The notes beneath the pieces are model-generated. The model ran no database searches. It saw only the letters and a list, made by a program, of their open reading frames with translations, and was not told the origin of the DNA. Positions 38,166 to 55,036 of a stretch of 64,000 nt of DNA are shown in pieces (the first letter of the stretch is position 1; each line of letters begins with the position of its first letter). The translations under genes were made by a program, and so were the position numbers. The DNA is taken from positions 5,901,295-5,965,294 of the forward strand of contig OZ242003.1 of the NCBI GenBank assembly GCA_965204675.1, in the 5' to 3' direction. Origin of the DNA: Vicinamibacterales bacterium (lineage in GTDB: Bacteria; Acidobacteriota; Vicinamibacteria; Vicinamibacterales; UBA8438).

Positions 38166-38198
38166 ATGCGCACCGTCAACATGCACGAAGCCAAGAGC
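38166..38198 (+). pseudogene. Truncated Phd/YefM antitoxin start
   Basis: MRTVNMHEAKS is a typical Phd N-terminus. The similarity stops after about 10 codons. Confidence 0.55.
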
Positions 38199-38242
38199 GG
38201 TTGCGGCGACATCGACGACCAGCCGGCGAAGCCCTGGCGGGT

Positions 38243-38698: not shown

Positions 38699-38977
38699 CG
38701 CCCCTTGCACCTCCTCGGTTCCGCCGCCCCCGGCCGTCGCGCGCCGAGCACCCTCTCCCCATCTACCGGTCCCGGAACGGGTGGGACTTCCGCAGCACGT
38801 CGACCTCGCCCACGCCCGTTCCCGGCAGCGTCCGCCAAGCCGAAACGGCTCAGTGCCGGCCAGACGCCGAACGTCCCAACCGCGGAGGAGCCAAGACTGG
38901 AGGTGTGGACGACCGCACGAGAGACGCTGCCCCCCCGACTCGGAACCGCCGGCGCGTACCGCCAAGCCGGCGCTAGA

Positions 38978-40296: not shown

Positions 40297-40595
40297 TGCC
40301 GTTTCGATTGCTCGAAGGGGCTCGCGCCCTGCTGGCTCGCCGGTTCTGCCGGGGGCGAGGCACGGCCCTCGAACGCGTCGAGCAGATCGTCAGGAAGGGG
40401 ATCGAAGAAGCTATCCGGGACCACGAGGTCGGGGTCGGTGCCGATGGGACGAGGTTGGGTGAGGGGTTTCGGTAACGGGCGAATCTCGGCCACGGGAACG
40501 TTGCGTCTGCAGAGAATCACCGTTTCCCCACGCTCCACACTGGCGAGGTACTGGGAGAGTCGCGCCTTGGCGACGGCCACATTCACCCTGATCAT
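40116..40595 (-). CDS. Phd/YefM antitoxin with a C-terminal extension
   Basis: MIRVNVAVAKARLSQYLASVERGETVILCRRNVPVAEIRP..RPIG..VPDSFFDPLPDDLLDAFEG, followed by about 80 extra residues. Confidence 0.8.
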   Translation of the reverse strand: MIRVNVAVAKARLSQYLASVERGETVILCRRNVPVAEIRPLPKPLTQPRPIGTDPDLVVPDSFFDPLPDDLLDAFEGRASPPAEPASQQGASPFEQSKRQWAGKLRAFYDQKHRSPRHEDPLKLTDVIARLQAPQSADRESLLASAEKFLLAATGRRAR

Positions 40596-40607
40596 GGGTC
40601 CTATTGT

Positions 40608-40627
40608 TGACCATCAAGATGACCATC
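40608..40627 (-). promoter_or_regulatory. Tandem operator-like repeat upstream of phd
   Basis: TGACCATC-aaga-TGACCATC direct repeat just upstream of the ATG. Confidence 0.4.
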
Positions 40628-40780
40628 GTCAAGCCGCCGGACTCCGGCCGTCGGGTAGAACGACGATCGTGGCGCGAGTCTTTGCGGCCGGAGCCCGCCG
40701 GAAGCCGCTCGACAGCCGTTCGACGGCATGCTATGCGGCGCCGGCGGAAGGAGCGGTCGGCCAGCGCTGGATTGGTCGCA

Positions 40781-40846
40781 AAAAGGGAACACCTCGGCCG
40801 GCGGCGCAGGCCGCAGCACTCCGCCGGTCAGCTCGAGCGTACGCAC
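40781..40846 (-). pseudogene. Relic copy of the SRPBCC gene 5' end
   Basis: Encodes (V)RTLELTG...PAEVFPF versus (V)RTFELTS...RAEVFPF at 38698. Shares the exact block GGGAACACCTCGGCC. Confidence 0.75.
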
Positions 40847-40854
40847 CGGCGCGT

Positions 40855-43800
40855 CTACTCCTCCTCAAACTCATGCGACCGGAACTTGAGCGTCTTGCAG
40901 TTCTCGTTGACAATACGCTGGACGCTCTCGCTCAGACCGTCCTTGACGGTGGCCGAGATCTCCACCGACACCTCTACCGCCGCCCCCGGCAGCACAGTCA
41001 GGTGCCTCACGACTTCCTCGGTTACGACGCTCATGTCGCGGCCGGCGCGGATCGGGTCGAGCCGGATCGTCCCGAAGAAGCGGCGTGGCAAGCGCTGCTG
41101 GATGACCGGGGGCTTGTCAGCGCCTCCAGGTTGTGTTCCTGGATCCGTCCCGGCGTCCGTCGACGGCGTTTCCCCCTGGTCGGTCGATCCCTTCGTCGAC
41201 GCTTGCTCGGCCTCGCGTTGGGCCTTCGCAACATCAGGTTTCACGAGCACGCTCGTCGCATCGAGATAGACGGAGGTCGACGAGCCGAGCGTCAGGCCCT
41301 CGTAGCGGCCCTGCTCCGAGACACTGGTGGCGTACCCGAAGTAGTCGCCGCTTTCTAGCCCCGCCCGGAGCGTGCTCTCGAAGACGGACTGGTCCCGCAA
41401 GCGGGGCAGGTAGCAGTACGCGCACAGCGCATCCCAGACCTGCTTGACGGGGACATGCTTCCGGTCCTTCCAGAACCAGCGGTCGAGTTCCATCTTCAGG
41501 AGCGCCGGCGACCACTGGACGATCAGGTGCTCGCTCGACCGCATGCGCTGCGAGACGCGGGCCGCGATGGCATCGCCGCCGCCCGCCACCTGTTCGACCT
41601 CCCATTCGAGTCCGCTCACGCCCTCGGCCGATGCGTGCTGGACGGGAACGAGCAGCCAGCGCCACGCCTCGCTCAGACGAAGCCGCGCGGTCTCGTCGCT
41701 CGCCTTCTCGCCGTCGGCGGCCTCGCGGCGCTGGTGGGCGTCGAGATTCAGCGCCTCGTGGTCGCGCACCACCGACCGCCACGCCAGGAAGCGCCGCGCT
41801 TCCTGCTCGAGTCCCTCCGTCACCTCCCGGTCGGGCGCGAGGAACGCGAGCATGTTCTGGTGCTTTCGCGGCCCCTTGCCGCGGCTGGAGAGCAGGTCGC
41901 GGGCCGATTCCAGGGCGGCGCTGCGGGCGTCCTTGTCTGCGTGCGTGGCGCCGGGAGCAAGGACCACGAGCCGCGCCGCCGGCTCGTCGGGCACGTCGGC
42001 TGACGACCCGGGGCAGACGTGCACGGCCTGGAAGTCGCCCCGGCCCCGGCGCGACGCTTCGCGCACCCGGCGCTCGATCTCCTGCTCGACGTCGTCTCCG
42101 CTGAACTGCTGCGCCCGCTCAGCCACGGTGCGCCGCAGGTTGGGTCGCGTGTCGTACCACGAACGATGCCCCTTGCGGTAGAGATAGGTGAGCCGGTCGG
42201 CGAGCTGCGACGCGGCGTCGTTGAAGACGGCGACCTGTTCTCCGGGCTGGACCGCGCCGAGCCGCAGCCGGACGTCTTCGAGGCCGCGCACCTGCTGCTG
42301 CGCCACGTGCGGCGCGCTGCCGAGGAAGATGGTCCGGGCCACGCGGCGGGCCGCCACGATCTGGCCGAAGCGCGGGTTCTCGGCATCGACGCGGAACGGC
42401 CCGGCGTTGGGGCCGTCCACGTCGCCTTCGAGCACCGGCGTCCAGCCCTCGGGCAGATAGCGGGTCAACTCGTCGCGCACCGCGGGGGCGTCGAGCCCGA
42501 TGGAGCCCGGCAGGATCACGAAACCCGCGTCGTCGCGCACCCACAGGTCGTGAATGACGGCGGCCATCAGGCGCAGCACGCCGCGCGTGCGCTGAAAGCG
42601 CTCCAGCGTGGACCAGTCGCTGTACAGCCGCTCGAAGACCTCCGGGTGGATGGGGTAGCACGCCTTCAGGCGCTCCAGATACCGCCCCTCCCTGCATTCC
42701 GCGGGAAAGTCGGCGCCGTTCTCGCGGTACAGGGCGGCGAACGCCCGGCACACCTCGTCCCGCGCCGGCTCGTCGTCGATGGGCAGAAAGAGGCGCCGGC
42801 GCACGACCTCGAACCCCTCTTCCGAACCCACCGGCTTCCAGACCGCCTCCATGCGCCCGAAGGTGTGTTCGATCCGCGCCAGGGTCTCGCGACCCGCGTC
42901 GCCCCCGATCTCGATGTCCGACTCGGGAATGGTCGCGACGACCACGGTGTTGCGGCTGGCGCGCACCGCTTCCGTCAACTCCTGAATGAAGGTCTGCACC
43001 GCGTCGAAGCTGCCGGAGGGCAGCCCGTCGACGCCGTAGATCTTCCGCGCATACGCGACCAGCTCGTCAACGAGGATGAGGCACGGACCGCACGCGTCGA
43101 ACAGCCCGCGCAGGGCATCCGACCCGGGCGGCACCCCCTTGCGATCGGCCGACCGCACCCGGTTGAAGAGCTTCGGGTCGCCGGCCTGCTCGGCGAGCTG
43201 GGCCGCGATCTCACCCCAGAGGGTGCGGATTGTGATGCCCGGCAGGTTCGCCGGCCGGCGTTCTCTCGTGGGATTGATGGCGGTACCGACCACGACCGCT
43301 ACCCGTGCCGGCGTCGGCCGCCCGATGCCGGCCTCCTTCAACAAGTCGTCGACGCCGCGAAGCTTGTCGAACGCCACTCGCCCCCGCAACAGGTGGTACA
43401 GGGCGAGCAGGGAATGCGTCTTGCCGCCGCCGAACGCCGTCTTGAGCTGGATGACCGGCTCGCCGCCCTGCCGGGCGATCCGTCGCAGGGCCTGGGTCAT
43501 CAGCTCGCGCATGCCGTCGGTGACGTAGGTGCGGGCGAAGAACTCGACCGGATCCTGGTACTCGGCTTCCGCGCGCCCCCGCGCCACCTGCGAGAGATCC
43601 GCCGCGAACTCCGCCTGCCGGTAACGGCCGGCGGAAACGTCGGGATGCGGCCTCGCCACGTCCTTCCACGGTCTCAGTCCGTGCCGAGAGACGGCCGTGA
43701 GCACGCCGCCCCGATCCGCTCTCACCGGCACTGCATTCGTCGGCGGCTCGACCTCGGTCACCGACGTCGACGGGCCCTCCGTGCCGTAGCGCACCGTTCG

Positions 43801-44244
43801 CGCCAGGGCCCGCAGCCGCTCCGTCGCATCGGCGTCGATCTGCTCGACGAGCCGGGTCATCGTGTCGAGGGCCCGCCACGCGTCCTCGTCCGCCATGCCG
43901 AGCAACTCGGGATGCGCCCACTTGTTGCGCGTCGAGATCAACTCCTTGATCCACGTGCGGTGGTCGCGGCTGAGCTTGTGCCGGAAGAGCTCGTTCCACC
44001 GCACGTCCATGAGCCGCAGGCACCTCGCAGCGTCGAGCTTGGCCGTCAGCTCGTCGTCCTCCCCCCGGACCGGAAGGCCGCGCTGCTGGCTCTCGTGGAG
44101 GACGCCCAGGACACCGCGGATCCACCACTCGTCTCCCAATTCCGCCCGCAGCTCCTGCGCCACGTAGGGCGCGAGAACCCCCGTGAGGGTCCGCAACCCC
44201 TCCGTGACGCGCTGGTAGTTCGTGTCGGTCGTGGCGGTAGTCAT
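40855..44244 (-). CDS. Swt1-like HEPN + DUF499 AAA+ ATPase
   Basis: N-terminal RNKWAH (Rx4H), YRQAEFAADL, QLKTAFGGGKTH (Walker A), LILVDELVAY (Walker B), YPIHPE and FQRTRGVLR. Confidence 0.88.
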   Translation of the reverse strand: MTTATTDTNYQRVTEGLRTLTGVLAPYVAQELRAELGDEWWIRGVLGVLHESQQRGLPVRGEDDELTAKLDAARCLRLMDVRWNELFRHKLSRDHRTWIKELISTRNKWAHPELLGMADEDAWRALDTMTRLVEQIDADATERLRALARTVRYGTEGPSTSVTEVEPPTNAVPVRADRGGVLTAVSRHGLRPWKDVARPHPDVSAGRYRQAEFAADLSQVARGRAEAEYQDPVEFFARTYVTDGMRELMTQALRRIARQGGEPVIQLKTAFGGGKTHSLLALYHLLRGRVAFDKLRGVDDLLKEAGIGRPTPARVAVVVGTAINPTRERRPANLPGITIRTLWGEIAAQLAEQAGDPKLFNRVRSADRKGVPPGSDALRGLFDACGPCLILVDELVAYARKIYGVDGLPSGSFDAVQTFIQELTEAVRASRNTVVVATIPESDIEIGGDAGRETLARIEHTFGRMEAVWKPVGSEEGFEVVRRRLFLPIDDEPARDEVCRAFAALYRENGADFPAECREGRYLERLKACYPIHPEVFERLYSDWSTLERFQRTRGVLRLMAAVIHDLWVRDDAGFVILPGSIGLDAPAVRDELTRYLPEGWTPVLEGDVDGPNAGPFRVDAENPRFGQIVAARRVARTIFLGSAPHVAQQQVRGLEDVRLRLGAVQPGEQVAVFNDAASQLADRLTYLYRKGHRSWYDTRPNLRRTVAERAQQFSGDDVEQEIERRVREASRRGRGDFQAVHVCPGSSADVPDEPAARLVVLAPGATHADKDARSAALESARDLLSSRGKGPRKHQNMLAFLAPDREVTEGLEQEARRFLAWRSVVRDHEALNLDAHQRREAADGEKASDETARLRLSEAWRWLLVPVQHASAEGVSGLEWEVEQVAGGGDAIAARVSQRMRSSEHLIVQWSPALLKMELDRWFWKDRKHVPVKQVWDALCAYCYLPRLRDQSVFESTLRAGLESGDYFGYATSVSEQGRYEGLTLGSSTSVYLDATSVLVKPDVAKAQREAEQASTKGSTDQGETPSTDAGTDPGTQPGGADKPPVIQQRLPRRFFGTIRLDPIRAGRDMSVVTEEVVRHLTVLPGAAVEVSVEISATVKDGLSESVQRIVNENCKTLKFRSHEFEEE

Positions 44245-44273
44245 CGCATCCCCCGAGTCACCCGAACCGCTCC

Positions 44274-47201
44274 TCACTCCGCAGCCCCGAGCGCCAAGTC
44301 GCCCTGCTCGCCGGCGCCGGCGCCGAGCCGAGCGGCTTCCGCCTGAATCTGCGGCCAGGACGTCACGAGGACATTGTAGGCGTACGCTTCGTCAGCCCAC
44401 TTCCGGCGATCGGCGAGCGCGTACAGCCGGTACGCGAGTGCACGGGCCTTTTCCGCCCGCTCGCCGCCCATCGCAAGCACCAGACGAGCCGCTTCGGCGA
44501 CCCCGCCACCCTGCTCCGCCGTGAGCGCCCGGGTCAGATGCTGCGCACCCTCCCAGTCGGCGACGCGCCTGTCGCTCGCCGGGTCCCAGTCCGAGTCGAG
44601 CTCATCGCGGCCCCTGATCCGGACCTTCCCCTTGCCGCCCACGATCACGCCAGCGCTTCGCAAGCCCTCGAACGACGTGTTCTTGGCGTTGAACAGAACC
44701 TCCGCCTCCCCGTAGGCACGCTCCGCCATTCCGTACTGTTCGTACCAGGCCACGCAGAAGCGCGTGTCCGCGTCCAGATCGCCCTCCTGCCTCGCCAGCG
44801 TCTCGTCCAGCATTCTGTTGATCTCGACGAGAGCCGACCGCACCGACATCCGGGAACCATCGGCTTCGAGCACCTGCCCATAGCGCGTGAAGACAGCCAT
44901 GCCAGGGCCGATAGCCGCTTGCGCCAAGTCGACCGGCGCGATGTTGCTCGCCTGCAGATCGGCGAGCGCCGCAGGCAGCTCCGACCGAAGCGCCGCTAGG
45001 AACTGCCGCCGGGAAGCCATCTCCGCATCGGCCGATCGACGGCGGCACACCAGAACGATGCTCGAGGCAAGGGCGTTAGCCTCTTGATTCCGCTTTCTGT
45101 TCTCGCGTTCTGTGCGCACGGGCCACGTTCCGGTGATCCCGAAGCCAGCCTGGATGACGGCTTCCAGAAACGTCTCCCAGCCGGTGCTGGTCGTGCCGGT
45201 GCCACCTCTCGTTTCGGATTGCTTGAAGGCGTAGTAGATCGTGACGGGGAATGCCGGATGTGCCTGTTGGGAGAGCTGGCGCATGGCCTGAGTCATGCCA
45301 TCCAGGAAGAATCGCTCCGCTTCCGCCTTGTTGCCGTGGCGACGGGGCGTGGCGACCAACTCTTCGCCCTTTGGCACCGCCACCGTCGAGAAGAGCTCCG
45401 GCAACATCAGTTTCAGGGCACGGCGGAGCCAGACATAGAAGAAGTCGGACAGGTCGGCGTAGCCGATGTTGTCGTAGTACGGTGGGTCGGTGGACAGGAC
45501 CCTGTCGCGGCTCACCGCTTGGGTTGCCGCGTCAGCCTGACTCGCTGTTCCGCAGGAATTCCGGTTCGCGCCATTCGACACCAGACCTGCCGCGGTGTTC
45601 TGAACCATGCTCTCGAATGAACCGCTGGGCCCGTTCAACGTGTTCGCCTCCGCGTAGTCCCATGACATGGGAAGCGCCTGTCGTCCGAATGTATCTCCAG
45701 GACACTCAACCCCGATCTTGAAGGTACAGAGCATGCTCGAACGATTGGCCGTCTTGCTCGTCGCGAGACCCAGGTACACTGCCACGGCCTCCGCGTACTC
45801 AATCCCGCGGGCACGCCCGCGGGCACGCCCGCGGTGGCCCGGTCCGTCGTCTCGCAAGCCCGCGGCGCGCGCATCGTGCCGAACGCGGTCCATGGTGTCC
45901 GTTACCAGGTCGGAGAGAGTCGTCAAGACGACGAGTTGGCGGCGCGTGAAGAGGTCGCTCCACTTCGTCATCCCGTAGTTGCCCACTCGAAAACCAAGAG
46001 CCTGCTGGAAGAACTCGACATCTGGCCTCCACTCAGGAATAGCTCGGCGCGCGGCGTGTTCCTGTTCTGCAAGCGGGGGCAAGTGGACCCGGCGTCTATC
46101 GCCCTGGGCGACGATCGCCATCAGTCGGGCGCCGATGCGGCCGCGCTGCCCCTCGGCCATGATGTAGTCGCCCGCGACCGGCGAGCCGGACATCAGGCAA
46201 CGGAAGTTCGCCCCGCTCGACAGCTTGGTTCCCGCCCTGGCGGCTTCCAGGTCGGGCGGGGCGCCGACCTTCACCGTAAATCGGTAGCCCCGTCCGTCGA
46301 CCACGGGCTCGACGTACGCCTGCTTCCCCTTCTTCGTCGACAGCATGAACGTCGACACGAGGGGCACGTCGACGTCGGCGAACGCGGGGTTGGGGCTCCT
46401 GACGGTCCGCGCCCAGAGCCACGCGATGACAGTGAGCTTTCGGCCCTCGTAGGGCTTCAGATCGGGCCGCTCCTGTACCAGCTCCGGCGTGATCTCGACC
46501 GGCGGATAGAGATGGCCGATGCGCTTCTCCGCCTCGTCGCGCATCCAGCGGCCATAGTAGCGCACGTCGTCGGCCAGCCCCTGAGCCCCGTGCCACGTCT
46601 TGGCAACGACCGTCTGCTCGGCCCGGGACACCGGGTTCACCGGCGGCCGGCCGGCGAACCCCGGCGGGATCTCGATCATCGCCTTGTTGATCAGCACCGC
46701 CACCGGGTTGAGATCGCTGGCGTGTGCTTCGAGTCCGAGCCTCTGCGCCTCCAGGGTTAGTGCTCCACCACCCGCGAAGGGGTCATGGAAGGCCGGCAGC
46801 CGGTCGGAATCGAACAGCTCCGCCGCCCGCGGATGTGCCGCGTTGTCGGCGCACGTGCGGCGCCAGCTCTCCCGAATCTCCTCCAGCGCCTGTTCCAGCA
46901 CGGCCTCGTTGGTCGTGTTCTCCCACTTGACGAGCTCCTGGACGATGCCGAACAATCGCTTGCGCTCCTGCTCCTGGGCCTTCTCGGTCGGAAACAGCTC
47001 TGGATGGCCCGACGGATCGTCCACCAGTTGCGCGAAGATCACGGCGCGCGCCGCGGCCAGAGGCCGTCTCGCCCACCACAGATGTAGCGTGCTCGGATGC
47101 CCGCGGCGAATCGACTTCTCGTGCACACTGGCGGCGTTGATGTCGTCGAGCGGCAGGGCGACCTCGATCAGCTTTTTTCGGGTCCTGGTTTCGAATTTCA
47201 C
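44274..47201 (-). CDS. DUF1156 adenine DNA methyltransferase (in frame with the upstream domain; has its own SD and GTG at 47201)
   Basis: KKLIEVALPL, HLWWARRPL, DPFAGGG (SAM motif I) and TDPPYYDN (motif IV). Confidence 0.9.
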   Translation of the reverse strand: MKFETRTRKKLIEVALPLDDINAASVHEKSIRRGHPSTLHLWWARRPLAAARAVIFAQLVDDPSGHPELFPTEKAQEQERKRLFGIVQELVKWENTTNEAVLEQALEEIRESWRRTCADNAAHPRAAELFDSDRLPAFHDPFAGGGALTLEAQRLGLEAHASDLNPVAVLINKAMIEIPPGFAGRPPVNPVSRAEQTVVAKTWHGAQGLADDVRYYGRWMRDEAEKRIGHLYPPVEITPELVQERPDLKPYEGRKLTVIAWLWARTVRSPNPAFADVDVPLVSTFMLSTKKGKQAYVEPVVDGRGYRFTVKVGAPPDLEAARAGTKLSSGANFRCLMSGSPVAGDYIMAEGQRGRIGARLMAIVAQGDRRRVHLPPLAEQEHAARRAIPEWRPDVEFFQQALGFRVGNYGMTKWSDLFTRRQLVVLTTLSDLVTDTMDRVRHDARAAGLRDDGPGHRGRARGRARGIEYAEAVAVYLGLATSKTANRSSMLCTFKIGVECPGDTFGRQALPMSWDYAEANTLNGPSGSFESMVQNTAAGLVSNGANRNSCGTASQADAATQAVSRDRVLSTDPPYYDNIGYADLSDFFYVWLRRALKLMLPELFSTVAVPKGEELVATPRRHGNKAEAERFFLDGMTQAMRQLSQQAHPAFPVTIYYAFKQSETRGGTGTTSTGWETFLEAVIQAGFGITGTWPVRTERENRKRNQEANALASSIVLVCRRRSADAEMASRRQFLAALRSELPAALADLQASNIAPVDLAQAAIGPGMAVFTRYGQVLEADGSRMSVRSALVEINRMLDETLARQEGDLDADTRFCVAWYEQYGMAERAYGEAEVLFNAKNTSFEGLRSAGVIVGGKGKVRIRGRDELDSDWDPASDRRVADWEGAQHLTRALTAEQGGGVAEAARLVLAMGGERAEKARALAYRLYALADRRKWADEAYAYNVLVTSWPQIQAEAARLGAGAGEQGDLALGAAE

Positions 47202-47867
47202 GTTATGCCTTCTCTCCGGGGAGGGACCATTCGGCCAACCGCCACCACTCGACGAAGCGGAGGGAAACCAGCCTTGCAGCAAGTCCTTGAGCCGCAGGAA
47301 GGCGCGGTCCCTACAGTCTGCCGTGTTCACCTTGCGCGCGAGCCTGCGGAAGAGTGAGGCCGAACGGCTCTTCCCCGTCCGCCCCAGAATGTACTCGATG
47401 GCCGCCTTCGGATCGATGGGTTTCGCGTCCGCGGCCACCCATAGATTCCGTTCTTCGAGAGCCTCGCGGATGGGGGGCCAAGACGGCTTCCAGCCGAGCA
47501 CGTCCGGGACGTGGGGCGAGGCGCTGAAGACCCACGCCTCCAGCTCGGGCTCGATGACGACGGGGACGGCCCAGTCGGACATGCCCGCCTCTTCAAGCTT
47601 CTCGTCGATGAGCGCTTCGAGCGCGACGCCGGACGCGGCGGGAACGCCTTCCCACGCATGGTCGAGGACGATCAAGGCGTGTTCGGCGGCGCTCCGGTAG
47701 CCGCGCAAGAGGTCCGCGGGACGGGCGTAACAGCCGGGGTCGTGATGCGGATGCACGAGGATCTCGGCTTCCACCGATCGAATGCCGAGCGCCCGGGGTC
47801 GAAGCAGCAGTTCCTCGAGTGTCGCCGCGATCTGTCTGTCGGCGACGACGCAGACGAGGTCCTTCAT
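47202..47867 (-). CDS. MAD4-like TOPRIM-type domain; no stop codon, reads through into the methyltransferase
   Basis: MKDLVCVVAD, ALGIR, HPHHDPG, HALIVLD, IEPELEAWV and WFP. The MAD4 resemblance is from memory. ATGA overlap with the upstream ATPase. Confidence 0.65.
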
Positions 47868-49141
47868 CCGAGGACCCCGCTCGCGTGCAGCAGGCCGAGG
47901 TCCACGACGCCGGGCCAGTCGCGCAGGCGCGGATGGACGGAGCCGGCCACGACGTCGGTGCCATTCTGGTCGTCGCGGGCGAAGCACAACAACTGGTCCG
48001 TCGTGACTTGGCGTACGACGGCCGGTGAGTGGGTCGCCACGAGAATCTGGGCGCCGTAGATGGAGGAGAGCGAATCCATCAGCGTTTCGACGTTGCCAGG
48101 GTGTATACCGTTCTCGGGCTCCTCGATGAGATAAGGGCCCTCCGGATACGGCAGGTAGGCGGGCAGCGTGAGCGCGAGAAACCGCAACGTGCCGTCAGAG
48201 ACGAGCCAGGACGGCGCTTCCAGTCCGTTACGGTAGTGGACCACGAGATAGCGATGCCCATCTTCCGGACGCTTGATGGTGGTGATGTTCTCGACGTCGG
48301 GAAGCGCTTCGCGGACATGGCAGAGCCAGTCCGCGTAGCGCTCAGGGGTCTCGATGGCCACGGCGTCGATGACGTGCGGCAGATTCGAAGCGTCGGGACG
48401 ATAGAAGTCGGAGCTGCTGGATGGGCTAGGACGACGCATGGCGTCGCCCCAGGGCGCGATGCGCCCCACGCCGGCGACGAGCATCCGCCAGAAACGGTCT
48501 GCAACTGGGAAGACCTCCGCGTCACCGGGTCGCGTGGCAAGTGCGGGCCTGTCCGCCGGCAGGCTGAACGTGATGGGCCGCGCAGATGTCTCGGCGCGGA
48601 AAGTAACGCGCTCGGGCTCGCTGCCCCGGGAGACGATCCTCTTCCAGCCGGCCGGCGCACGCTGCGCCGGATCAGCCACGATTCGGGCCGGCGGGTCCGG
48701 CGGGTCCGGGAAGTCCGTTCCCTCGCGTTCGGGGACGGCTCCGCCGTCCGGTTTCAGCCACAGGGTCTCCTTTGCGATCCGGAGTGGCTGCGACACGTCG
48801 ATCGCAACTTCGTAACGGCAGATGCCGGCGCGCCTGTCCTTCAGGCGTTCCCGAAGGTCATCGGGAATGGTCGCCTCCACGGCCAGCTCGAACGTCGAGC
48901 CGCGCCGCATCCAGGTCAGGTGTTGCGGGTCGACCGCCCGCAACGGAACATCCTGCGTTGCGTTGCCGGTGATCGCCTGCCCGACGCCGACCCGCTGCAG
49001 GTCGCCCAGAAAGGCCAGGACATCGAGGAACGCCGACTTGCCGCTGGCGTTGGGTCCCACGAGGACGTGGAACGGCCCGAGCCGTTGCGAAACGTAGCGC
49101 AGGGATCGAAACCCGAGGGCCTCGATCCGAGTCACGATCAT
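47864..49141 (-). CDS. ABC-type ATPase (MAD3-like/AAA_21)
   Basis: RIEALGFRSL, GPNASGKS, VSDGTLRFL, LIEEPENGIHP and VATHSP. Confidence 0.85.
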   Translation of the reverse strand: MIVTRIEALGFRSLRYVSQRLGPFHVLVGPNASGKSAFLDVLAFLGDLQRVGVGQAITGNATQDVPLRAVDPQHLTWMRRGSTFELAVEATIPDDLRERLKDRRAGICRYEVAIDVSQPLRIAKETLWLKPDGGAVPEREGTDFPDPPDPPARIVADPAQRAPAGWKRIVSRGSEPERVTFRAETSARPITFSLPADRPALATRPGDAEVFPVADRFWRMLVAGVGRIAPWGDAMRRPSPSSSSDFYRPDASNLPHVIDAVAIETPERYADWLCHVREALPDVENITTIKRPEDGHRYLVVHYRNGLEAPSWLVSDGTLRFLALTLPAYLPYPEGPYLIEEPENGIHPGNVETLMDSLSSIYGAQILVATHSPAVVRQVTTDQLLCFARDDQNGTDVVAGSVHPRLRDWPGVVDLGLLHASGVLG

Positions 49142-49309
49142 GCCTTGACCTCCGACTTGAGGCGCGTGCTCCCGCTCAGTCCGCGGAGAACGGCCGCCGC
49201 ACCGCCCGCGCTACACTCCAGCCGGTGGACGACCCAGCGGAAACAGTCTAGCGGATCATCCCTGCGAGGTCTTGGCGTCGACCGTGAGTCGCCAGGCGGA
49301 GTCGCGTAC

Positions 49310-52300
49310 CTACCGCGGCGCCTCCGACCTGGCCAGCAAGTCCTTCATCCCGTAGTTCACGCTCGCGGCGCCGAAGTCCGGCTCGCTCTGGAACGGCCGG
49401 CGGACGTAGCGGACGCGGTGCGTGTCGTCGTCGCGGAACTCGACGATGGCGAGGATGAAGTCGTCCGGCTTGTTCAGCGAGCAGAGGATCTCGTTGCGGG
49501 TGACGGTGATGGTCTCGGCATCGCTCCGGCGCCCCTTGACCTCGATGAACCGCAGTCGGCCGGTGCCGGGGATGCGGCTCTCGATGTCGTACCCGAGCTT
49601 CTCGAGCTCGCGGTCCTTCGGGTCGAAGCCGAGGCGTCGCTCGGTGTCCATCACGGCGGCGCGCGCCCGGGCGGCGGAAGCCTGGGTGTCGACGGGCGGC
49701 TCGGGAGCTGGATCGACACGTCCCGCCATCCTGTCGATCAGGCCGCGCGGCACGACCAGGAGACCGCCGAGGACGACCGGCGGCCGAGGCGCGATCTGCC
49801 CGTCCCGGTTCAGCTCCGCGCTCCGCTTCTGCAGGCGGAGCTGCAGCGTGTCCGCCCGCCGGCGCGCTTCGCCCGAGTTGAGACGGGCGCCGGTCTTGCC
49901 GGCCTCCTCGTCGAGCTTGAGCTGCTCGGCGCGGTGGTCCCAGTAGGAGATCTCCTTGGTCAACCGGTCCTTCACCGCCGCTTCTGTCTTCGCGATGAGG
50001 GCGAGCCGGGCGTCGCGGACCTCGGCGAGGTGCTCGGGCACGACGTGGGCGACGGCGTAGGCCTGGGCCGTCTCCTCCAGGTCGCGGCCGATCCAGGAGC
50101 ACTCGTCGCGGGCGAGGATGGCGTCGACCGCCGGCTCGTCGTCGGTCAGCGGCCGGTAGTCGAGATACGGGGCGTAGTGAAGCTGGCGGGTGACGCCGTC
50201 GGCGGCGAGCTCGACGTAGAGCACCCGCTTCGAGATGACCCGCCGCTCGCCGGCGCGGGTGACGCTGCCGTCCTGCAGCGCGTGCTCGACGGAGAAGAGG
50301 ACGCGAGGCGCCGTGCCCGTGTCGCGGTCGTCGACGAGGACCGCGCCGTGCCTCAGCAGGTCGCGGTAGCGCTCGAGCGTCACGTCGATGACCGCGTCGA
50401 GCAGTGGATGGCCGGGGCAGACGAAGGCGGCGAGCGGCTGGCCGGGCGGCGCCACCAGCGGCTTCTCGAAGGCGATGCGCTCGTAGCGCGGCAGGACCGG
50501 CTCTCCGACCCCGATCATCCGGTCGCGGCTGCGGACGAGGGCCGGGACGTGCGTCACCTCGTAGCGGCGCGCCTCGCGTTGCCGCACGGTCCCGCCGAGC
50601 CGCCGGAACGCCTCGCGGAAGAACGACTCGATGTAGTGCGGCTGGAGACGGCGCGCCTCCGCCCGCTCCATCTCTTCGCGAACGCGCTGCACACGGGTGG
50701 CGTCCATCGCGTCGTGGACGAGCTGCCGCTCCTCCAGGAGGTCCTGCAGCGCGCCCGGGTCGAAGGCGTGGTCGACGGCGGTGTCGAGGCGCGCCCGCAC
50801 CTCGGGCCGCTCGCCGTACCGGATGGCATCGAGCAGCAGCTCGCGCAGAGGCCGCCCCTCGAACTCCAGCTTCCCGAGCACGTCGAACACCTGGCCGCCG
50901 AGCGTCTGCCGAGCCCGCTCCAGCTTCTCGAGCAGCCGCCGGTAGACGTCGCCCTCGCGCGTGTCGTCGGCGACCAGGTTCCACAGGTGGCAGACCTCCG
51001 TCTGGCCGATCCGGTGGATGCGCCCGAAGCGCTGCTCCAGCCGGTTCGGGTTCCACGGCAGGTCGTAGTTGACCATCAGGTGGGCCCGCTGCAGGTTGAT
51101 GCCCTCGCCGGCGGCGTCGGTGGCCAGCAGCACCTGCACGTCGGGGTCGTGGCGGAACGCCTCCTGCACCGCCAGCCGTTCCTCGCGGCCGATGCCGCCA
51201 TGGATGACGACGACCGCCTGTTCGCGGCCCAGCAGGGTGGCGATGCGCTTCTGCAGATAACGCAACGTGTCGCGGTGCTCCGTGAACAGCACCAGCTTCT
51301 GCCGCGGGGAGGGCGACGGCGGCGGAATCTCCCCGGCGCCGTACGGAACGTCCGTCTCCCTGACCTGTCCCCCCAGCCCCGCCGCCGTGAAGAGCTCACC
51401 GAAGAGACTCGCGAGCTCCAGCCACTTCGTATCCCGCCCCGCCCGTCGCACCTCCAGCGCCAGGGCTTCGAGCCGCTTCAGCGTCTCGATCTCCGCCTTC
51501 AGCTCCGCGATGGAGCGTGCCGCCGTCGCCTGATCGAGGATCCGCGCCTCGGCGTCCTCGACCTCCTGCTCGGGCGCGTCGTCGAGCTCATCGAGATCGT
51601 CTGCGTCGAGCTCCGGGACCGTGAACGGAACCGCCCCGGATGGCTGCCCGCCGCGCTGCAGGACCTCCAGCTCGCGCAAGCGCCCCTCCAGCCGCTCGCG
51701 CCGCCGTCGCAACGACTGATAGATCGCCTCCGACGACGAGGCGAGGCGCCGCTGGAGAATCGTGAGCGCGAAGCCGACCGTGCCCGCCCGCTTGGCGTTG
51801 GCCAGGGCGTCGGCCCGGTTGAACTCGTCCCGCACATAGTCCGTGACGGCCGCGTAAAGGCGGGCCTCCTCGTCTGACAACTGGTACGGGATGGTGTGGG
51901 CGATCCGCTCTGGAAACAGCGGCTTGCCGTCGAACTTCAGCAGCCGCTCCTTGACCATGCGCCGCATCAGGTCCGAGACGTCCGCCGTGTGGACGCCGTC
52001 CCGGAACCGCCCCTCGAAGCGGTCGCCGTCGAGCAGGGCCAGGAAGAGCTGGAAGTCCTCCTCCTTGCCGTTGTGCGGCGTCGCCGTCATCAGCAGCAGG
52101 TGCCGGGTCAACCCCGACAGCAGTTGGGCGAGCCGGTAGCGCTTGGTGTACTTGATCTCGCCGCCGAAGAACGTCGCCGAGAGCTTGTGGGCCTCGTCGC
52201 AGACCACCAGGTCCCAGCCTGCGTCCGGCGCCTGCAGCTTCTGCTGCACGTCCTCGTCACGCGACAGCTTGTCGAGCCGCGCGATGACGAGGTCCGTCTC

Positions 52301-52888
52301 CAGGAACCAGTTCCGGGTCCGCGCGGCCTCGAGCTTGTCGTTGGTCAGGATCTCGAAGGGGAGCTGGAACCGTCGGTACAGCTCGTCCTGCCACTGCTCG
52401 GCGAGGCTCCCCGGGCAGACGACCAGGCACCGCTCCAGGTCTCCGCGGGCGATCAGCTCCTTGATGAGGAGGCCCGCCATGATCGTCTTGCCCGCGCCGG
52501 GGTCGTCGGCCAGCAGGAAGCGCAACGGCTGGCGCGGCAGCATCGCCTCGTAGACGGCGGTGATCTGATGAGGCAGCGGATCTACCACCGATGTGTGGAC
52601 GGCCAGCACCGGGTCGAACAGGTGCGCGAGGCGGATGCGCTGAGCCTCCGACACCAGCCGGAACAGCGCCCCGTCGCCATCGAAGCTCCACGGGCGCCCC
52701 TCGGCGACGAGTTCCAGCCGATCTTCGTCGTGACGGTAGAGCAGCTCGTTGGCGACCGCGCCCTCCGGCGTCTTGTAGGTCAGCTCGAGCGCGTCCCCGC
52801 CGAACCAATGAACGCTGACCACCGTCACCGCTCCGTCGGGATGAACGCCCCTGACGGCGCCGCGCGGCTGCAGATCCTCAAGTTGCAT
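49310..52888 (-). CDS. SNF2-family helicase with C-terminal DUF3883 PD-(D/E)XK nuclease-like domain
   Basis: LLADDPGAGKT, DEAH, TATPH, TDAAGEGINLQ, EQRFGRIHR; C-terminal GYDIES..RFIEVKG. Confidence 0.92.
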   Translation of the reverse strand: MQLEDLQPRGAVRGVHPDGAVTVVSVHWFGGDALELTYKTPEGAVANELLYRHDEDRLELVAEGRPWSFDGDGALFRLVSEAQRIRLAHLFDPVLAVHTSVVDPLPHQITAVYEAMLPRQPLRFLLADDPGAGKTIMAGLLIKELIARGDLERCLVVCPGSLAEQWQDELYRRFQLPFEILTNDKLEAARTRNWFLETDLVIARLDKLSRDEDVQQKLQAPDAGWDLVVCDEAHKLSATFFGGEIKYTKRYRLAQLLSGLTRHLLLMTATPHNGKEEDFQLFLALLDGDRFEGRFRDGVHTADVSDLMRRMVKERLLKFDGKPLFPERIAHTIPYQLSDEEARLYAAVTDYVRDEFNRADALANAKRAGTVGFALTILQRRLASSSEAIYQSLRRRRERLEGRLRELEVLQRGGQPSGAVPFTVPELDADDLDELDDAPEQEVEDAEARILDQATAARSIAELKAEIETLKRLEALALEVRRAGRDTKWLELASLFGELFTAAGLGGQVRETDVPYGAGEIPPPSPSPRQKLVLFTEHRDTLRYLQKRIATLLGREQAVVVIHGGIGREERLAVQEAFRHDPDVQVLLATDAAGEGINLQRAHLMVNYDLPWNPNRLEQRFGRIHRIGQTEVCHLWNLVADDTREGDVYRRLLEKLERARQTLGGQVFDVLGKLEFEGRPLRELLLDAIRYGERPEVRARLDTAVDHAFDPGALQDLLEERQLVHDAMDATRVQRVREEMERAEARRLQPHYIESFFREAFRRLGGTVRQREARRYEVTHVPALVRSRDRMIGVGEPVLPRYERIAFEKPLVAPPGQPLAAFVCPGHPLLDAVIDVTLERYRDLLRHGAVLVDDRDTGTAPRVLFSVEHALQDGSVTRAGERRVISKRVLYVELAADGVTRQLHYAPYLDYRPLTDDEPAVDAILARDECSWIGRDLEETAQAYAVAHVVPEHLAEVRDARLALIAKTEAAVKDRLTKEISYWDHRAEQLKLDEEAGKTGARLNSGEARRRADTLQLRLQKRSAELNRDGQIAPRPPVVLGGLLVVPRGLIDRMAGRVDPAPEPPVDTQASAARARAAVMDTERRLGFDPKDRELEKLGYDIESRIPGTGRLRFIEVKGRRSDAETITVTRNEILCSLNKPDDFILAIVEFRDDDTHRVRYVRRPFQSEPDFGAASVNYGMKDLLARSEAPR

Positions 52889-53284
52889 GACTCCCGATCA
52901 CCCCAACACCATGCACGCGCCGGCCCAGCCCTGCACGCAAGACGCTCTTGTGCTGACTCCATGCACGATGAAGAACCGCAGCCGCACGAATCGTACGTTG
53001 GGTTGACCGGACCACCTCTATGGCTGAGCGATTCGAACACAAAGCCTGGAAGGAGACTGATGGCGACAATTGGACATGGTCCCGAATCAGCCGCTCCAAG
53101 ACTGCGGGCATCCGCGAGAACGGAAACACCGTGAGGCAGCAGCACCTCGCTGGTCAGATCGAACATCGGCACCCCTGCAACGCGCCTAACACCCGGCGCT
53201 GCAAACGCACCACACAACCACCACTCCGCTGCCCCTCCTGCGTGCACACCCTGACGCGCAGCGCCACCGACATCACCGCCAGCT

Positions 53285-54949
53285 TCACTCCAGCCGCCAC
53301 TCCCTTTTCAGTCTGGCCACCAGAGCGTCCTGGCGACGCCTCAAGACGGCCGGTGTCCATTCCTGCTCATTGAGTACCTGCGTGGTCAATGCAAACGGGG
53401 ACACGCCGCCCCGAGTGAAGTACCGGGTCGTCTTCTCTTCAAAATCCAAATTGGAGGCCCCGCTGTTCTTGCGGCGCGACAGAAGCACCAGATTCGCCAA
53501 TCGATGCGTCCACGACGCGCGCTCCTCATCATCCGCAAACCACCGAAGCCATGTCGAATCCTCCCTCGGGCGTTGAGGCAGCACGTGTTCGATCGAAATA
53601 ACCGAATGCTCGTAGCGCGCACCCGCGCCGACCAGCAAGCCGTCAAGCCTCAGCAGAAGCGGTTTCGGAACGCGCGGCAGCGTGTACACCGGCCCGTTCA
53701 GCGCATGCACGATGGCTTCCTTCTCTTCAGCTCGAAGCTGGAGGTGGCCTTCAGGCTCCAAGATGTCGTCGCCCTCCTCCATGGACTGGAGTATGGCAGC
53801 GTAACGGTTCACTCGCTCGTTGATGTTGGCACGCCGAATGAAAAGACCGTAGGCCAACCTCTCCAGATCGGCGATGAACTGCCTGCGTCGGTCCGAATCA
53901 GCCGAATTGGCGCGGAGGAACGCCATAGCTGGCGGGACCCAATCATAGTTGTCAAGACGACGCAAACTACCGAGGCATGCAACCGTTCTGTCGTCGCCGG
54001 CCGTGCCCTCCGACATCCCCAGCACGGATTCGTACGCCTCGGCGTACGGCTCGAGGATGTTGTCGATGAAATCCGTACTTCTGGAATTCTTCAGCACAAA
54101 ATCCTGGAACTCGTCCTGCAGATTGCGACGCGCCTTGGCCTTGGCATACACCATCCGTATGTGGACAAAAAGATCGCTGAATCTGCTTCGGCCCAACTCT
54201 TGCTCGATGTCCTCCCACTTGTCGCTGTACTCCTGGCGCCTTATCTCCTCGATACTCCCAATGATCTGGGCCTTCAGAATATCGGTCGGACCTAGATTGA
54301 GCCCGCGATCATTCATGACCGAGAAAATCCGATAGGCAGAGCCTATGTCGGACGTCGAAACGACCACCAGGTAGCAATGCTGGATGATGAACCGAGACAA
54401 GGAGTCCCGATCCCCGCTCGCTAAGTCGGACAGCTTCCTGTACAGGTGCCCCGCATTTTCGACTATCCGTAGCTGGCTGTCCGTGGCGACCTGCCCGCCG
54501 GTCGTCTCCAGCAACCTTGGGATCGCGCCATTGGTCTGAATGTTCGCGTGAAAAAAGGCCTGATCTCGATCTCGGAGCCGCAACCGAACCTCTTCCTCTG
54601 CGCCGATCAGCTCATCAGGAGGTTGCCGCACGCGCCTGTCCAAATCGGTCCTAATCGGCTCCTCAGCCAGGTCCCGAAGCGTACAAAGCAGAATCGTGAG
54701 CGTCGTCAGCCGCTGCTGACCGTCGATGACCTTGCTGTCTGGACCGTCGCCCTTGATGAGAACAATGCTACCGAGGAAATAGGGAACATCCTTTTCTCTG
54801 CCCATGGCGAACAACAGATCGTCCAGCAGTTCGCCGACCTCGTCGGTAGTCCAAGCATACGGGCGTTGGTAATGGGGAATCTCGAACACGTAGTCGTCGC
54901 AGAACACCTTGTTCAAGTTCTGTTCACTGGCCTTGATTGTCTCTGGCAT
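53285..54949 (-). CDS. GmrSD-type DUF262 + DUF1524 (HNH) restriction endonuclease
   Basis: IPHYQRPYAW, FLGSIV, IDGQQRLTT, F..MNDRGLNL, SIEHVLPQ and LANLVLL..RKN. The sequence is visibly more AT-rich than the flanks. Confidence 0.9.
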   Translation of the reverse strand: MPETIKASEQNLNKVFCDDYVFEIPHYQRPYAWTTDEVGELLDDLLFAMGREKDVPYFLGSIVLIKGDGPDSKVIDGQQRLTTLTILLCTLRDLAEEPIRTDLDRRVRQPPDELIGAEEEVRLRLRDRDQAFFHANIQTNGAIPRLLETTGGQVATDSQLRIVENAGHLYRKLSDLASGDRDSLSRFIIQHCYLVVVSTSDIGSAYRIFSVMNDRGLNLGPTDILKAQIIGSIEEIRRQEYSDKWEDIEQELGRSRFSDLFVHIRMVYAKAKARRNLQDEFQDFVLKNSRSTDFIDNILEPYAEAYESVLGMSEGTAGDDRTVACLGSLRRLDNYDWVPPAMAFLRANSADSDRRRQFIADLERLAYGLFIRRANINERVNRYAAILQSMEEGDDILEPEGHLQLRAEEKEAIVHALNGPVYTLPRVPKPLLLRLDGLLVGAGARYEHSVISIEHVLPQRPREDSTWLRWFADDEERASWTHRLANLVLLSRRKNSGASNLDFEEKTTRYFTRGGVSPFALTTQVLNEQEWTPAVLRRRQDALVARLKREWRLE

Positions 54950-55036
54950 TTGACGTGGACCCCAACAAACTGACGCAGTGAAGGGTCACGCGGAAGCGAC
55001 GCGTCGCACGGGCCGGCGCGCCGCCCCCTAACGCTC

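What the first reader, a model, noticed from the sequence alone, without database searches (positions are those of the whole stretch)
40855..54949. Composite defence locus: restriction-like SNF2/DUF1156/DUF499 module with embedded MAD3/MAD4-like pair, HEPN and GmrSD
Seen: five co-oriented ORFs (six functional units), namely GmrSD, SNF2-DUF3883, ABC ATPase, TOPRIM-like domain fused to methyltransferase, and HEPN-DUF499, with catalytic motifs apparently intact. Established (from memory): DUF499 + DUF1156 + SNF2 nuclease is the core of the 'restriction-like' system (Gao_RL in DefenseFinder, which also has DUF3780), and MAD3/MAD4 belong to MADS. Here no separate DUF3780 gene is present, and the ATPase/TOPRIM pair sits inside the operon, coupled to the methylase. 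Inference: a hybrid architecture I do not recognise as described, combining self-methylation, restriction and a back-up abortive layer.
Basis: partly seen in the sequence, partly recalled or inferred. Interest (0 to 1): 0.85.

Follow-up and report, generated by a model that had tools for sequence, protein, structure and literature searches.

The report
Hma defence operon, MAD4-methylase fusion
This is a real, intact anti-phage gene cluster of an already published type (an Hma / BREX-related restriction-like system with a nested MAD3-MAD4 ATPase-nuclease pair, a HEPN RNase fusion and a neighbouring GmrSD enzyme); I found one feature undescribed in the papers I could search, namely that the small nuclease is fused to the methylase in one small bacterial lineage.

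Summary
The five minus-strand genes and all domain calls are confirmed, and every catalytic motif checked is intact. The architecture is not new.

- **Core system.** PADLOC models HmaA, HmaB and HmaC match full-length at E = 0. This is the Hma system, also called the "Type-1 DUF499-centred BREX-related" system. It is not Gao_RL/MANTIS.
- **HEPN::DUF499 fusion.** Published in 2013.
- **Nested ATPase/Toprim pair.** ABC-ATPase/Toprim pairs nested in Hma are published as HEC-01. Here the pair passes NCBIfam's MAD3 and MAD4 equivalog cut-offs.
- **GmrSD.** These enzymes are known Hma companions. This one is a low-GC, lineage-specific neighbour, absent from every related locus, so it is not part of the unit.

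What remains is the in-frame MAD4::HmaB (nuclease::methylase) fusion.

- It is real: 55 protein clusters and 9 independent loci carry it.
- It has a single origin (one clade, SH-aLRT 100).
- It stays in frame despite linkers of six different lengths.
- It usually keeps a GTG/ATG with an SD-like motif at the old HmaB start.

None of the relevant papers I read mentions it. MAD3-MAD4 pairs are otherwise mostly free-standing.

Verdict: a known system, with a modest new domain-architecture variant.

The parts
53285..54949 (-). GmrSD-family type IV restriction enzyme (554 aa), with a DUF262 NTPase domain (DGQQR at 54710-54724) and a DUF1524 His-Me nuclease domain (EHVLP at 53576-53590). It is a neighbour of the Hma unit, not a member of it.
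   Evidence: Pfam GmrSD_N and GmrSD_C are above cut-off. PADLOC 'Orf5' PDLC02686 scores 2.7e-165 over the full length; HEC-06 scores 6e-62 over part. GC is 0.578 and GC3 0.72, against about 0.71 for the genome. It is absent from all related loci.
49310..52888 (-). HmaA: SNF2 helicase (DEAH at 52187-52198) with a C-terminal NOV_C/DUF3883 PD-(D/E)xK nuclease (49406-49666).
   Evidence: PADLOC HmaA PDLC00659 matches at E = 0, residues 1-1191 of 1192. Pfam hits: SNF2-rel_dom, Helicase_C, NOV_C. Motifs.
47864..49141 (-). MAD3-family ABC (OLD-type, AAA_21) ATPase, 425 aa. Its stop overlaps the start of the next gene (ATGA).
   Evidence: NCBIfam antiphage_MADS3 NF047739 scores 442.4 bits against a 420-bit cut-off, over the full profile. 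PADLOC HEC-01A 1e-37, mad3 1e-26. Walker A, Walker B, signature and H-loop are present.
47262..47867 (-). MAD4 (Toprim-like nuclease) domain, residues 1-202 of the 1197-aa fusion protein.
   Evidence: NCBIfam antiphage_MADS4 NF047734 scores 190.3 bits against a 160-bit cut-off, profile positions 1-206 of 206. The acidic cluster is conserved. The AF2 model has pLDDT 91.8.
47202..47261 (-). Pro/Ser/Gly-rich linker of the fusion. It contains the SD-like GGAGAGAAGG 6 nt upstream of the in-frame GTG at 47199-47201, which is the relic and possibly still used HmaB start.
   Evidence: Sequence read. A GTG/ATG at the equivalent site, with an SD-like motif clear in most and weak in two (L001, L004), is seen in the 11 fused sequences aligned. 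V/M occupies that position in 46 of 51 fused proteins, and linker lengths are 31, 32, 33, 41, 42 and 57 aa.
44274..47201 (-). HmaB core: DUF1156 N6-adenine-type DNA methyltransferase (motif I DPFAGGG at 46764-46784; motif IV DPPY at 45477-45488).
   Evidence: PADLOC HmaB PDLC00660 and PDLC00661 match at E = 0 over profile positions 4-964 of 967. Pfam DUF1156 1.6e-30.
40855..44277 (-). HEPN_Swt1 RNase domain (43834-44199; RNKWAH at 43912-43929) fused to the HmaC DUF499 AAA+ ATPase (40861-43677).
   Evidence: Pfam HEPN_Swt1 2.7e-27 and DUF499 3.1e-24. PADLOC HmaC PDLC00662 matches at E = 0, profile positions 3-941 of 941. The same fusion follows the fused methylase in L001, L002, L004, L009, L010, L015 and L017.
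53135..53173 (.). Copy of the 5' end of the SRPBCC gene, lying between GmrSD and hmaA. Further copies lie at 40777-40848 (just after the hmaC stop) and 38629-38700 (the start of the real gene). Together they mark module boundaries.
   Evidence: the repeat finder families D1 and D2. blastp and blastn comparison.

Best explanation
**What it is.** The locus is an Hma system (HmaA helicase-nuclease, HmaB DUF1156 methylase, HmaC DUF499 ATPase). This is the same as the Type-1 DUF499-centred BREX-related RM-like system, here in its common HEPN-fused form. It carries the MAD3-MAD4 (HEC-01-type) ABC-ATPase/Toprim-nuclease module between hmaA and hmaB. In this lineage MAD4 has lost its stop codon, so it is made only as an N-terminal domain of the methylase.

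**Context.** A separately and recently acquired GmrSD type IV enzyme sits upstream. Everything lies in a variable defence slot between a PQQ dehydrogenase gene and an SRPBCC gene of a Vicinamibacterales-like acidobacterium.

**Likely working (inferred from relatives, not shown here).**
- HmaC loads and activates HmaB, which marks host DNA with m6A. This follows MtsA/MtsC of the sister system MANTIS.
- HmaA translocates on and nicks or cleaves unmarked DNA. The Halomonas HmaA nickase is the precedent.
- MAD3 dimers clamp two MAD4::HmaB chains, as in the published 2:2 MAD3-MAD4 heterotetramer. This puts a second, ATPase-gated DNase on the sequence-recognising methylase.
- The HEPN RNase on HmaC acts as a last-resort abortive effector.
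- GmrSD independently covers phages with hypermodified DNA.
- A conserved internal GTG with an SD-like motif may also yield free HmaB.
For: **Identity.**
- PADLOC HmaA/B/C match at E = 0 over their full length.
- NCBIfam MAD3 and MAD4 are above their equivalog cut-offs.
- Pfam finds HEPN_Swt1 + DUF499 and GmrSD_N/C.
- Motifs are intact.

**Literature.**
- Hma embedding, HEC-01 and HEC-06.
- HEPN::DUF499 with SNF2-DUF3883.
- Type-1 BR systems with OLD-ABC/Toprim auxiliaries.
- MAD3-MAD4 heterotetramer with ATPase and DNase activity.
- MANTIS mechanism.
- HmaA nickase defence, plus an AAA_21 pair and GmrSD in Halomonas hma loci.

**The fusion is real and selected.**
- 55 clusters of roughly 1200-aa proteins carry it.
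- It is in frame in 9 distinct loci from Acidobacteriota, Gammaproteobacteria and unbinned metagenome assemblies.
- Six linker lengths occur, all in frame.
- The fused and remnant loci form one clade with SH-aLRT 100.

**GmrSD is foreign.** Its GC is 0.578. It is absent from syntenic relatives, where PQQ-DH abuts hmaA or MAD3.
Against: - No experiment exists on this locus or on any fused homologue.
- HEC-01 gave no defence when Payne et al. tested it alone.
- Foldseek found no PDB match for the MAD4 model. The Toprim assignment therefore rests on family membership and on the 2026 MAD4 structure paper, whose entry is not in the library.
- Functional coupling of MAD3-MAD4 to the methylase is inference. 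In 60 of 74 related loci the pair has no Hma nearby. In a 20-locus sample of those (17 upstream and 17 downstream ORFs identified, 10 of each scanned against Pfam), many neighbours are housekeeping genes.
- The internal V/M is missing in 5 of 51 fused proteins.
Confidence: 0.85

Rival explanations
1. The guest is independent and the fusion has no functional meaning. On this view MAD3-MAD4 is an autonomous embedded defence cassette. Loss of its stop codon was a tolerated accident. The functional methylase is made from the retained internal GTG, and the long fusion protein merely carries a working MAD4.
For: - MAD3-MAD4 pairs stand alone in 60 of 74 related loci, and many sampled neighbours are housekeeping genes.
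- A GTG/ATG with an SD-like motif, clear in most and weak in two, is kept at the old HmaB start in the 11 fused sequences aligned, and V/M is kept in 46 of 51 proteins.
- In deletion derivatives L006 and L008, MAD3-MAD4 survive while HmaA, HmaB and HmaC are lost.
Against: - The frame across a fast-evolving linker is kept through six linker-length classes, in 51 clusters and several phyla.
- All MAD4 made in these genomes is necessarily tethered to HmaB, yet its catalytic residues stay conserved.
- The pair recurs next to different methylases: MADS mad2, HmaB, and MmeI-, Eco57I- and N6_N4-type enzymes.
Confidence: 0.3
2. One reading: all five genes (six units), GmrSD included, form one new, integrated hybrid system distinct from any described model.
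For: The genes are co-oriented and all motifs are intact. The four genes from hmaA to hmaC are conserved as a block.
Against: - The block matches the published Hma model with an embedded HEC-01/MAD3-MAD4 pair.
- GmrSD is absent from every relative and has deviant GC.
- GmrSD is separated from hmaA by 396 nt, which holds a repeat that marks a module boundary.
Confidence: 0.05
3. The locus is a MADS (methylation-associated defence system) variant.
For: MAD3 and MAD4 equivalogs are present. A methylase sits next to them, as mad2 does in MADS.
Against: MADS detection requires MAD6, MAD7 and MAD8, and no such genes exist between the housekeeping flanks. HmaA, HmaB and HmaC hit no MADS family.
Confidence: 0.03

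Closest known systems
Hma system (PADLOC; Payne et al. 2021, 2024) = Type-1 DUF499-centred BREX-related system (PMC12839542), with Hma-embedded candidate HEC-01
   Same: - HmaA (SNF2 + DUF3883 nuclease), HmaB (DUF1156 methylase) and HmaC (DUF499 ATPase) lie on one strand.
- HmaC carries the HEPN N-terminal fusion.
- An ABC-ATPase/Toprim pair is nested between hma genes.
- GmrSD-type genes accompany the system.
   Different: - The Toprim partner is not a separate gene. It is fused to the N-terminus of HmaB, so a gene-based model would see only the ATPase.
- No HEC-01B model hit the fused protein at E < 0.01.
- The pair sits upstream of hmaB here, rather than between hmaB and hmaC as in Halomonas and in L043, L066 and L067.
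MAD3-MAD4 module of Pseudomonas aeruginosa MADS (PMC13662399; 10.1101/2023.03.30.534895)
   Same: Both proteins pass NCBIfam equivalog cut-offs. The genes are translationally coupled. The conserved acidic residues of MAD4 plausibly correspond to the published Mg2+ pocket (D12, D55, D81, E119, E121). The module lies next to a methylase.
   Different: The host system is Hma, not MADS, and there is no MAD1, MAD2 or MAD5-8. MAD4 is covalently joined to the methylase. Identity to proteins that NCBI names MAD4 is about 43%.
Gao_RL / MANTIS (MtsA-D; 10.64898/2026.09.23.753747)
   Same: This is the sister family: a DUF499 ATPase, a DUF1156 methylase and a helicase-nuclease. Its mechanism is the best available model for HmaB/HmaC.
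   Different: There is no MtsB gene, and the helicase carries a NOV_C/PD-(D/E)xK nuclease rather than a PLD nuclease. NCBIfam's anti-phage-associated DUF499, DUF1156 and phospholipase-D models (which I read as the Gao_RL set) score 182/1200, 106/1000 and 164/1100 bits.
Type IIG/IIL and Type ISP restriction-modification enzymes (for example MmeI, LlaGI); comparison from my own knowledge
   Same: A nuclease domain and a methylase with target-recognition module sit in one polypeptide, so cleavage and modification share one specificity.
   Different: The nuclease here is Toprim-like and paired with a separate ABC ATPase. The comparison is an analogy only and was not tested.

Membership tests
Hma (PADLOC hma model) | HmaA, HmaB and HmaC each present once, on the same strand, with at most 3 embedded genes between neighbours (Payne 2024 methods) | tested here: met
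   PDLC00659, PDLC00660 and PDLC00662 match at E = 0 with near-full coverage. All three are on the minus strand. One gene (MAD3) lies between hmaA and hmaB, and none between hmaB and hmaC.
Type-1 DUF499-centred BR system (PMC12839542) | DUF499 ATPase (often HEPN-fused), DUF1156 N6-methylase, and Swi2/Snf2 helicase with a C-terminal PD-(D/E)xK REase | tested here: met
   Pfam HEPN_Swt1 + DUF499, DUF1156, and SNF2 + NOV_C. D...ExK, DPPY and Rx4H motifs are present. The N-terminal TUDOR domain of the helicase was not examined.
Gao_RL / MANTIS | Anti-phage-associated DUF499, DUF1156 and phospholipase-D-helicase NCBIfam equivalogs (which I read as the Gao_RL set) plus a small co-regulator gene (MtsB) | tested here: not met
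   NF042962 scores 182 vs 1200 bits, NF042963 106 vs 1000, and NF042964 164 vs 1100. Intergenic gaps are 396 nt or less, which leaves no room for a fourth core gene.
MADS | MAD6, MAD7 and MAD8 are mandatory; MAD3 and MAD4 are accessory | tested here: not met
   MAD3 and MAD4 equivalogs are present. All other genes between the housekeeping flanks are Hma, GmrSD, toxin-antitoxin or SRPBCC genes.
MAD3 / MAD4 protein families (NCBIfam equivalogs) | Score above the curated cut-off over the whole profile | tested here: met
   MAD3 scores 442.4 vs 420 bits over profile 1-427 of 427. MAD4 scores 190.3 vs 160 bits over profile 1-206 of 206.
HEC-01 (PADLOC two-gene candidate) | HEC-01A ATPase plus a separate HEC-01B Toprim gene | tested here: inconclusive
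   HEC-01A scores 1e-37 on the ATPase. No HEC-01B hit reached E < 0.01 on the fused protein; only mad4 did, at 1e-6. The partner exists, but as a domain rather than a gene.
Toprim fold | Toprim-like alpha/beta core with a conserved acidic metal site | tested here: inconclusive
   The acidic residues are conserved and the AF2 model is confident. Foldseek against the PDB gave no hit with E < 0.001, and phmmer against the PDB gave none. The assignment rests on the MAD4 structure paper.
GmrSD family (type IV restriction) | DUF262 domain with DGQQR plus DUF1524 His-Me nuclease with (D/E)HxxP | tested here: met
   Pfam scores are 123.7 and 84.4 bits, above cut-offs. DGQQR76 and EHVLP454 are present.
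HEPN superfamily | Rx4-6H motif in a helical domain | tested here: met
   HEPN_Swt1 scores 95.8 bits against a 27.5-bit cut-off. RNKWAH lies at residues 117-122.

The most novel reading that the evidence does not exclude
The conserved MAD4::HmaB fusion may be a 'Rosetta stone'. On this reading MAD3-MAD4 is not an independent guest. It is an ATP-gated nuclease that docks on the methylase and recognition subunit, making a Type IIG-like cut-or-methylate machine. This would explain three things:
- why the pair recurs beside unrelated methylases (MADS mad2, HmaB, MmeI- and Eco57I-type enzymes);
- why mad3 deletion keeps methylation but loses restriction in MADS;
- why HEC-01 cloned alone gave no defence.

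The mostly conserved internal GTG with an SD-like motif would then give two HmaB isoforms: free methylase for maintenance, and nuclease-tethered methylase for restriction.
Probability: 0.25. Interest if true: 0.65.

Novelty: new variant of a known kind. Interest (0 to 1): 0.35.

Why it matters
As a locus it is a clean, intact, single-copy example of a published arrangement, so it adds little.

The fusion clade is the useful part. How nested modules such as MAD3-MAD4 relate to their host systems is still open; the authors of the 2026 MAD3-MAD4 structure paper say so. Here nature has tied MAD4 covalently to a methylase and kept that link across at least two phyla. This gives a concrete, cheap test: split the fusion, remove the internal start, and pull down MAD3. 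It also warns that gene-based detectors (PADLOC HEC-01, the MADS models) will miss the nuclease partner in these genomes.

Tried and rejected
- **Neighbour clustering.** Clustering neighbours around 80 MAD3-MAD4 pairs to find a universal partner found none beyond the pair itself. The idea that MAD3-MAD4 is always linked to a methylase is therefore rejected.
- **MADS and Gao_RL membership.** Both rejected.
- **Sequencing or assembly artefact at the fusion junction.** Rejected, because the fusion recurs in many independent assemblies.
- **Pseudogenisation.** Rejected.
- **Provenance of the PADLOC label 'Orf5'.** I could not establish it for the best GmrSD model.
- **Rfam.** No RNA family lies in 37500-56000.
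- **Promoter and terminator scan.** Uninformative in this 70% GC genome.


Full report
**1. Observation**

The window has about 70% GC.

Pfam assigns the following:
- GmrSD_N + GmrSD_C to 54949-53285.
- SNF2-rel_dom, Helicase_C and NOV_C (the DUF3883-type nuclease) to 52888-49310.
- AAA_21 to 49141-47864.
- DUF1156, plus a weak D12-methylase hit, to the long ORF ending at 44274.
- HEPN_Swt1 + DUF499 to 44277-40855.

The long ORF listed from GTG 47987 overlaps the ATPase gene by 124 nt. The sequence shows an ATG at 47867 in an ATGA overlap with the ATPase stop codon. The resulting 1197-aa protein is the form present in public collections.

All catalytic motifs I looked for are intact. The acidic residues of the N-terminal domain are at least 90% conserved in 143 homologues.

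**2. What the parts are**

PADLOC-DB matches HmaA, HmaB and HmaC at E = 0 over essentially their whole profiles. The HmaB profile starts at residue 226 of the 1197-aa protein. The HmaC profile starts at residue 201 of its protein, so both proteins have extra N-terminal domains.

NCBIfam places the ATPase in antiphage_MADS3 (442 bits, cut-off 420). It places residues 2-202 of the methylase protein in antiphage_MADS4 (190 bits, cut-off 160, full profile). NCBIfam's three anti-phage-associated models (DUF499, DUF1156, phospholipase-D helicase), which I read as the Gao_RL set, score 5- to 10-fold below their cut-offs.

The GmrSD protein matches a PADLOC family labelled 'Orf5' full-length (2.7e-165). 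It matches HEC-06 only in part.

An AlphaFold2 model of the MAD4 domain is confident (pLDDT 91.8). It finds no significant PDB neighbour, and a sequence search of the PDB is empty. The Toprim label therefore rests on family membership and on the 2026 MAD3-MAD4 structure paper. That paper describes a Toprim-like fold with an Mg2+ pocket of D12, D55, D81, E83, E119 and E121, and a 2:2 heterotetramer with ATPase and DNase activity.

**3. What is already published**

- Payne et al. 2024 report that 62.7% of 1,485 Hma systems carry genes nested between hma genes. They name ABC ATPase + Toprim (HEC-01) and GmrSD-like genes (HEC-05/06) among them. HEC-01 alone gave no defence in their assay.
- Anantharaman et al. 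2013 described HEPN fused to the DUF499 ATPase, in operons with an SNF2 helicase fused to DUF3883.
- A 2026 survey renames Hma 'Type-1 DUF499-centred BREX-related system'. It counts the HEPN-fused form in 1370 taxa, reports OLD-ABC/Toprim auxiliaries in at least 1242 taxa, and lists GmrSD as a common auxiliary.
- A Halomonas study showed that the HmaA nickase defends against T4. It noted an AAA_21 ATPase pair and a GmrSD gene in hma loci.
- The sister system Gao_RL/MANTIS has a worked-out mechanism. The DUF499 ATPase loads the DUF1156 methylase for hemimethylation, and the helicase-nuclease restricts.

So the composite architecture is described. This locus belongs to Hma, not Gao_RL.

**4. The fusion**

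This is the one feature I did not find in any of these papers.

*It is not an artefact.*
- A search restricted to the MAD4 part finds 55 clusters of roughly 1200-aa DUF1156 proteins with 53-94% identity in that part.
- Three divergent examples show the same neighbourhood: [hmaA] - AAA_21 ATPase with a 4-nt overlap - fused methylase - HEPN_Swt1::DUF499.
- Among GTDB species genomes, at least 558 loci encode MAD4 relatives. The nearest are Vicinamibacteria and Vicinamibacterales MAGs.
- tblastn and frame checks show in-frame fusions in 9 distinct loci from Acidobacteriota, Gammaproteobacteria and unbinned metagenome assemblies. There is also one copy with MAD4 split by an insert (L009), one frameshifted copy (L005), and two deletion derivatives (L006, L008).

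*It arose once.* A MAD3+MAD4 tree puts all fused loci, the remnants and two loci that lack Hma (L012, L016) in one clade with SH-aLRT 100. This indicates one origin followed by losses and horizontal spread.

*It is kept in frame.* The linker is Pro/Ser/Gly-rich and poorly conserved. It occurs in lengths of 31, 32, 33, 41, 42 and 57 residues, always in frame.

*An internal start persists.*
- A GTG or ATG lies at the old HmaB start in the 11 fused sequences aligned (ten distinct loci plus the window). It sits nine codons before the conserved KKLIEV in ten of them and eight codons before in L002.
- A GGAG-like motif lies 6-14 nt upstream. It is clear in most and weak in two (L001, L004).
- V/M occupies that position in 46 of 51 fused proteins.

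Because MAD4 has no stop codon of its own, every MAD4 molecule here is tethered to HmaB. Yet its catalytic residues remain conserved.

**5. How independent is the MAD3-MAD4 pair?**

MAD3 and MAD4 are always together.
- In 60 of 74 non-redundant loci no Hma gene is nearby.
- Three loci (L043, L066, L067) have the unfused order hmaB-mad3-mad4-hmaC.
- I took a 20-locus sample of the loci without Hma (17 upstream and 17 downstream ORFs identified) and scanned ten ORFs on each side against Pfam.
- Many of these neighbours are housekeeping genes.
- A minority of the scanned ORFs are RM-type proteins: Eco57I/MmeI-type, N6_N4 and MmeI-family methylases, and a PLD-SNF2 helicase.
- From an earlier scan of clade members, L016 lies near a Type ISP methylase and L012 lies next to type I cas genes.
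- Clustering of neighbours found no universal partner.

The pair is thus a mobile two-gene module that repeatedly lands beside methylases but does not need one in cis. This limits the 'integrated' reading and keeps the 'independent guest' rival alive.

**6. Context**

The flanks are housekeeping genes: AcrB, P-II and Amt on the plus strand, and a PQQ dehydrogenase and others on the minus strand.

Related Vicinamibacterales genomes keep the same slot between the PQQ dehydrogenase and an SRPBCC gene, with varying content. PQQ-DH abuts hmaA in L009 and MAD3 in L008, and an Mrr gene sits there in L006. None of the 86 loci has the GmrSD gene.

GmrSD has GC 0.578 and GC3 0.72, against about 0.71 and above 0.9 for resident genes. 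It is a separate, recent acquisition. It is adjacent to Hma rather than embedded in it.

The first roughly 24 codons of the SRPBCC gene are repeated just after the hmaC stop and again between gmrSD and hmaA. This looks like successive insertions at one site.

A PIN toxin gene and a Phd-like gene lie between hmaC and the SRPBCC gene.

**7. Mechanism**

*Shown here.* Gene content, intact motifs, translational coupling of MAD3 to MAD4::HmaB, and conservation of the fusion.

*Taken from published relatives.* m6A marking by the DUF1156 methylase with help from the DUF499 ATPase; restriction by the helicase-nuclease; MAD3-MAD4 as an assembly-dependent DNase; GmrSD as a modified-DNA nuclease; HEPN as an RNase.

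*Inferred.* MAD3 dimers bridge two MAD4::HmaB chains, so a second nuclease sits on the recognition subunit (my odds about 0.55). The internal start supplies free methylase (about 0.4).

**8. Verdict**

This is a sound observation of an already described system type. The MAD4::methylase fusion clade is a modest new architectural variant, worth one cheap experiment. Earlier notes in this scan on other genomes reached the same 'published Hma with nested MAD3/MAD4' conclusion.

Noticed in passing
window 38629-38700, 40777-40848, 53135-53173: The 5' end of the SRPBCC (polyketide-cyclase-like) gene (VRTFELTSEV...) occurs three times at 71-77% identity: at the real gene, right after the hmaC stop, and between gmrSD and hmaA. 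This looks like tandem accretion of modules at one insertion site. No integrase was seen.
   Followed up: partly
L006 6727-9013 and L008 7727-9890: In two close relatives only MAD3 and MAD4 survive. They are followed by a stub joining the first ~4% of HmaB to the last 5-7% of HmaC. hmaA is also gone.
   Followed up: partly
L004 10001-14341 (P0037); also P0035, P0042, P0050, P0058: Some fused MAD4::HmaB proteins are about 1430-1450 aa long and carry a Pfam Y1_Tnp (IS200-type transposase) domain inside the methylase ORF.
   Followed up: no
own genome G000:C1 about 5375000-5386300 (L091/L092): A second, decayed Hma region lies about 570 kb away. It holds an intact unfused HmaB paralogue (59% identity, 970-aa ORF), a frameshifted HmaB copy on the other strand, a broken HmaC, and an HmaA N-terminal fragment (86% identity).
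   Followed up: partly
window 9874-11652 (+): A second ABC ATPase in a lower-GC patch (0.663) matches PADLOC candidate PDC-M07A (4e-56) better than HEC-01A or mad3. It is a different ATPase-nuclease cassette from the one in Hma.
   Followed up: partly
window 38978-39367 (-), 40116-40595 (-): A PIN-domain toxin gene and an ORF with a Phd/YefM-like N-terminus lie between hmaC and the SRPBCC gene. A PIN pair also flanks the homologous operon in L001 and L017.
   Followed up: no
L009 6109-9558: MAD4 is interrupted by an insert of about 2.8 kb, while the MAD4-HmaB junction downstream is still in frame.
   Followed up: no
L014 5865-7700 and 12904-14751: In a gammaproteobacterial fused locus, an AAA-ATPase_like + PDDEXK_9 gene sits between hmaA and mad3. 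A SIR2-STAND gene follows the fused methylase where hmaC would be expected.
   Followed up: no
window 40855-52888: GC3 differs within the operon: hmaA 0.93 and hmaC 0.88, against 0.815 for mad3, the mad4 domain and the hmaB core. This hints that the mad3-mad4::hmaB block has a different history from its neighbours.
   Followed up: no
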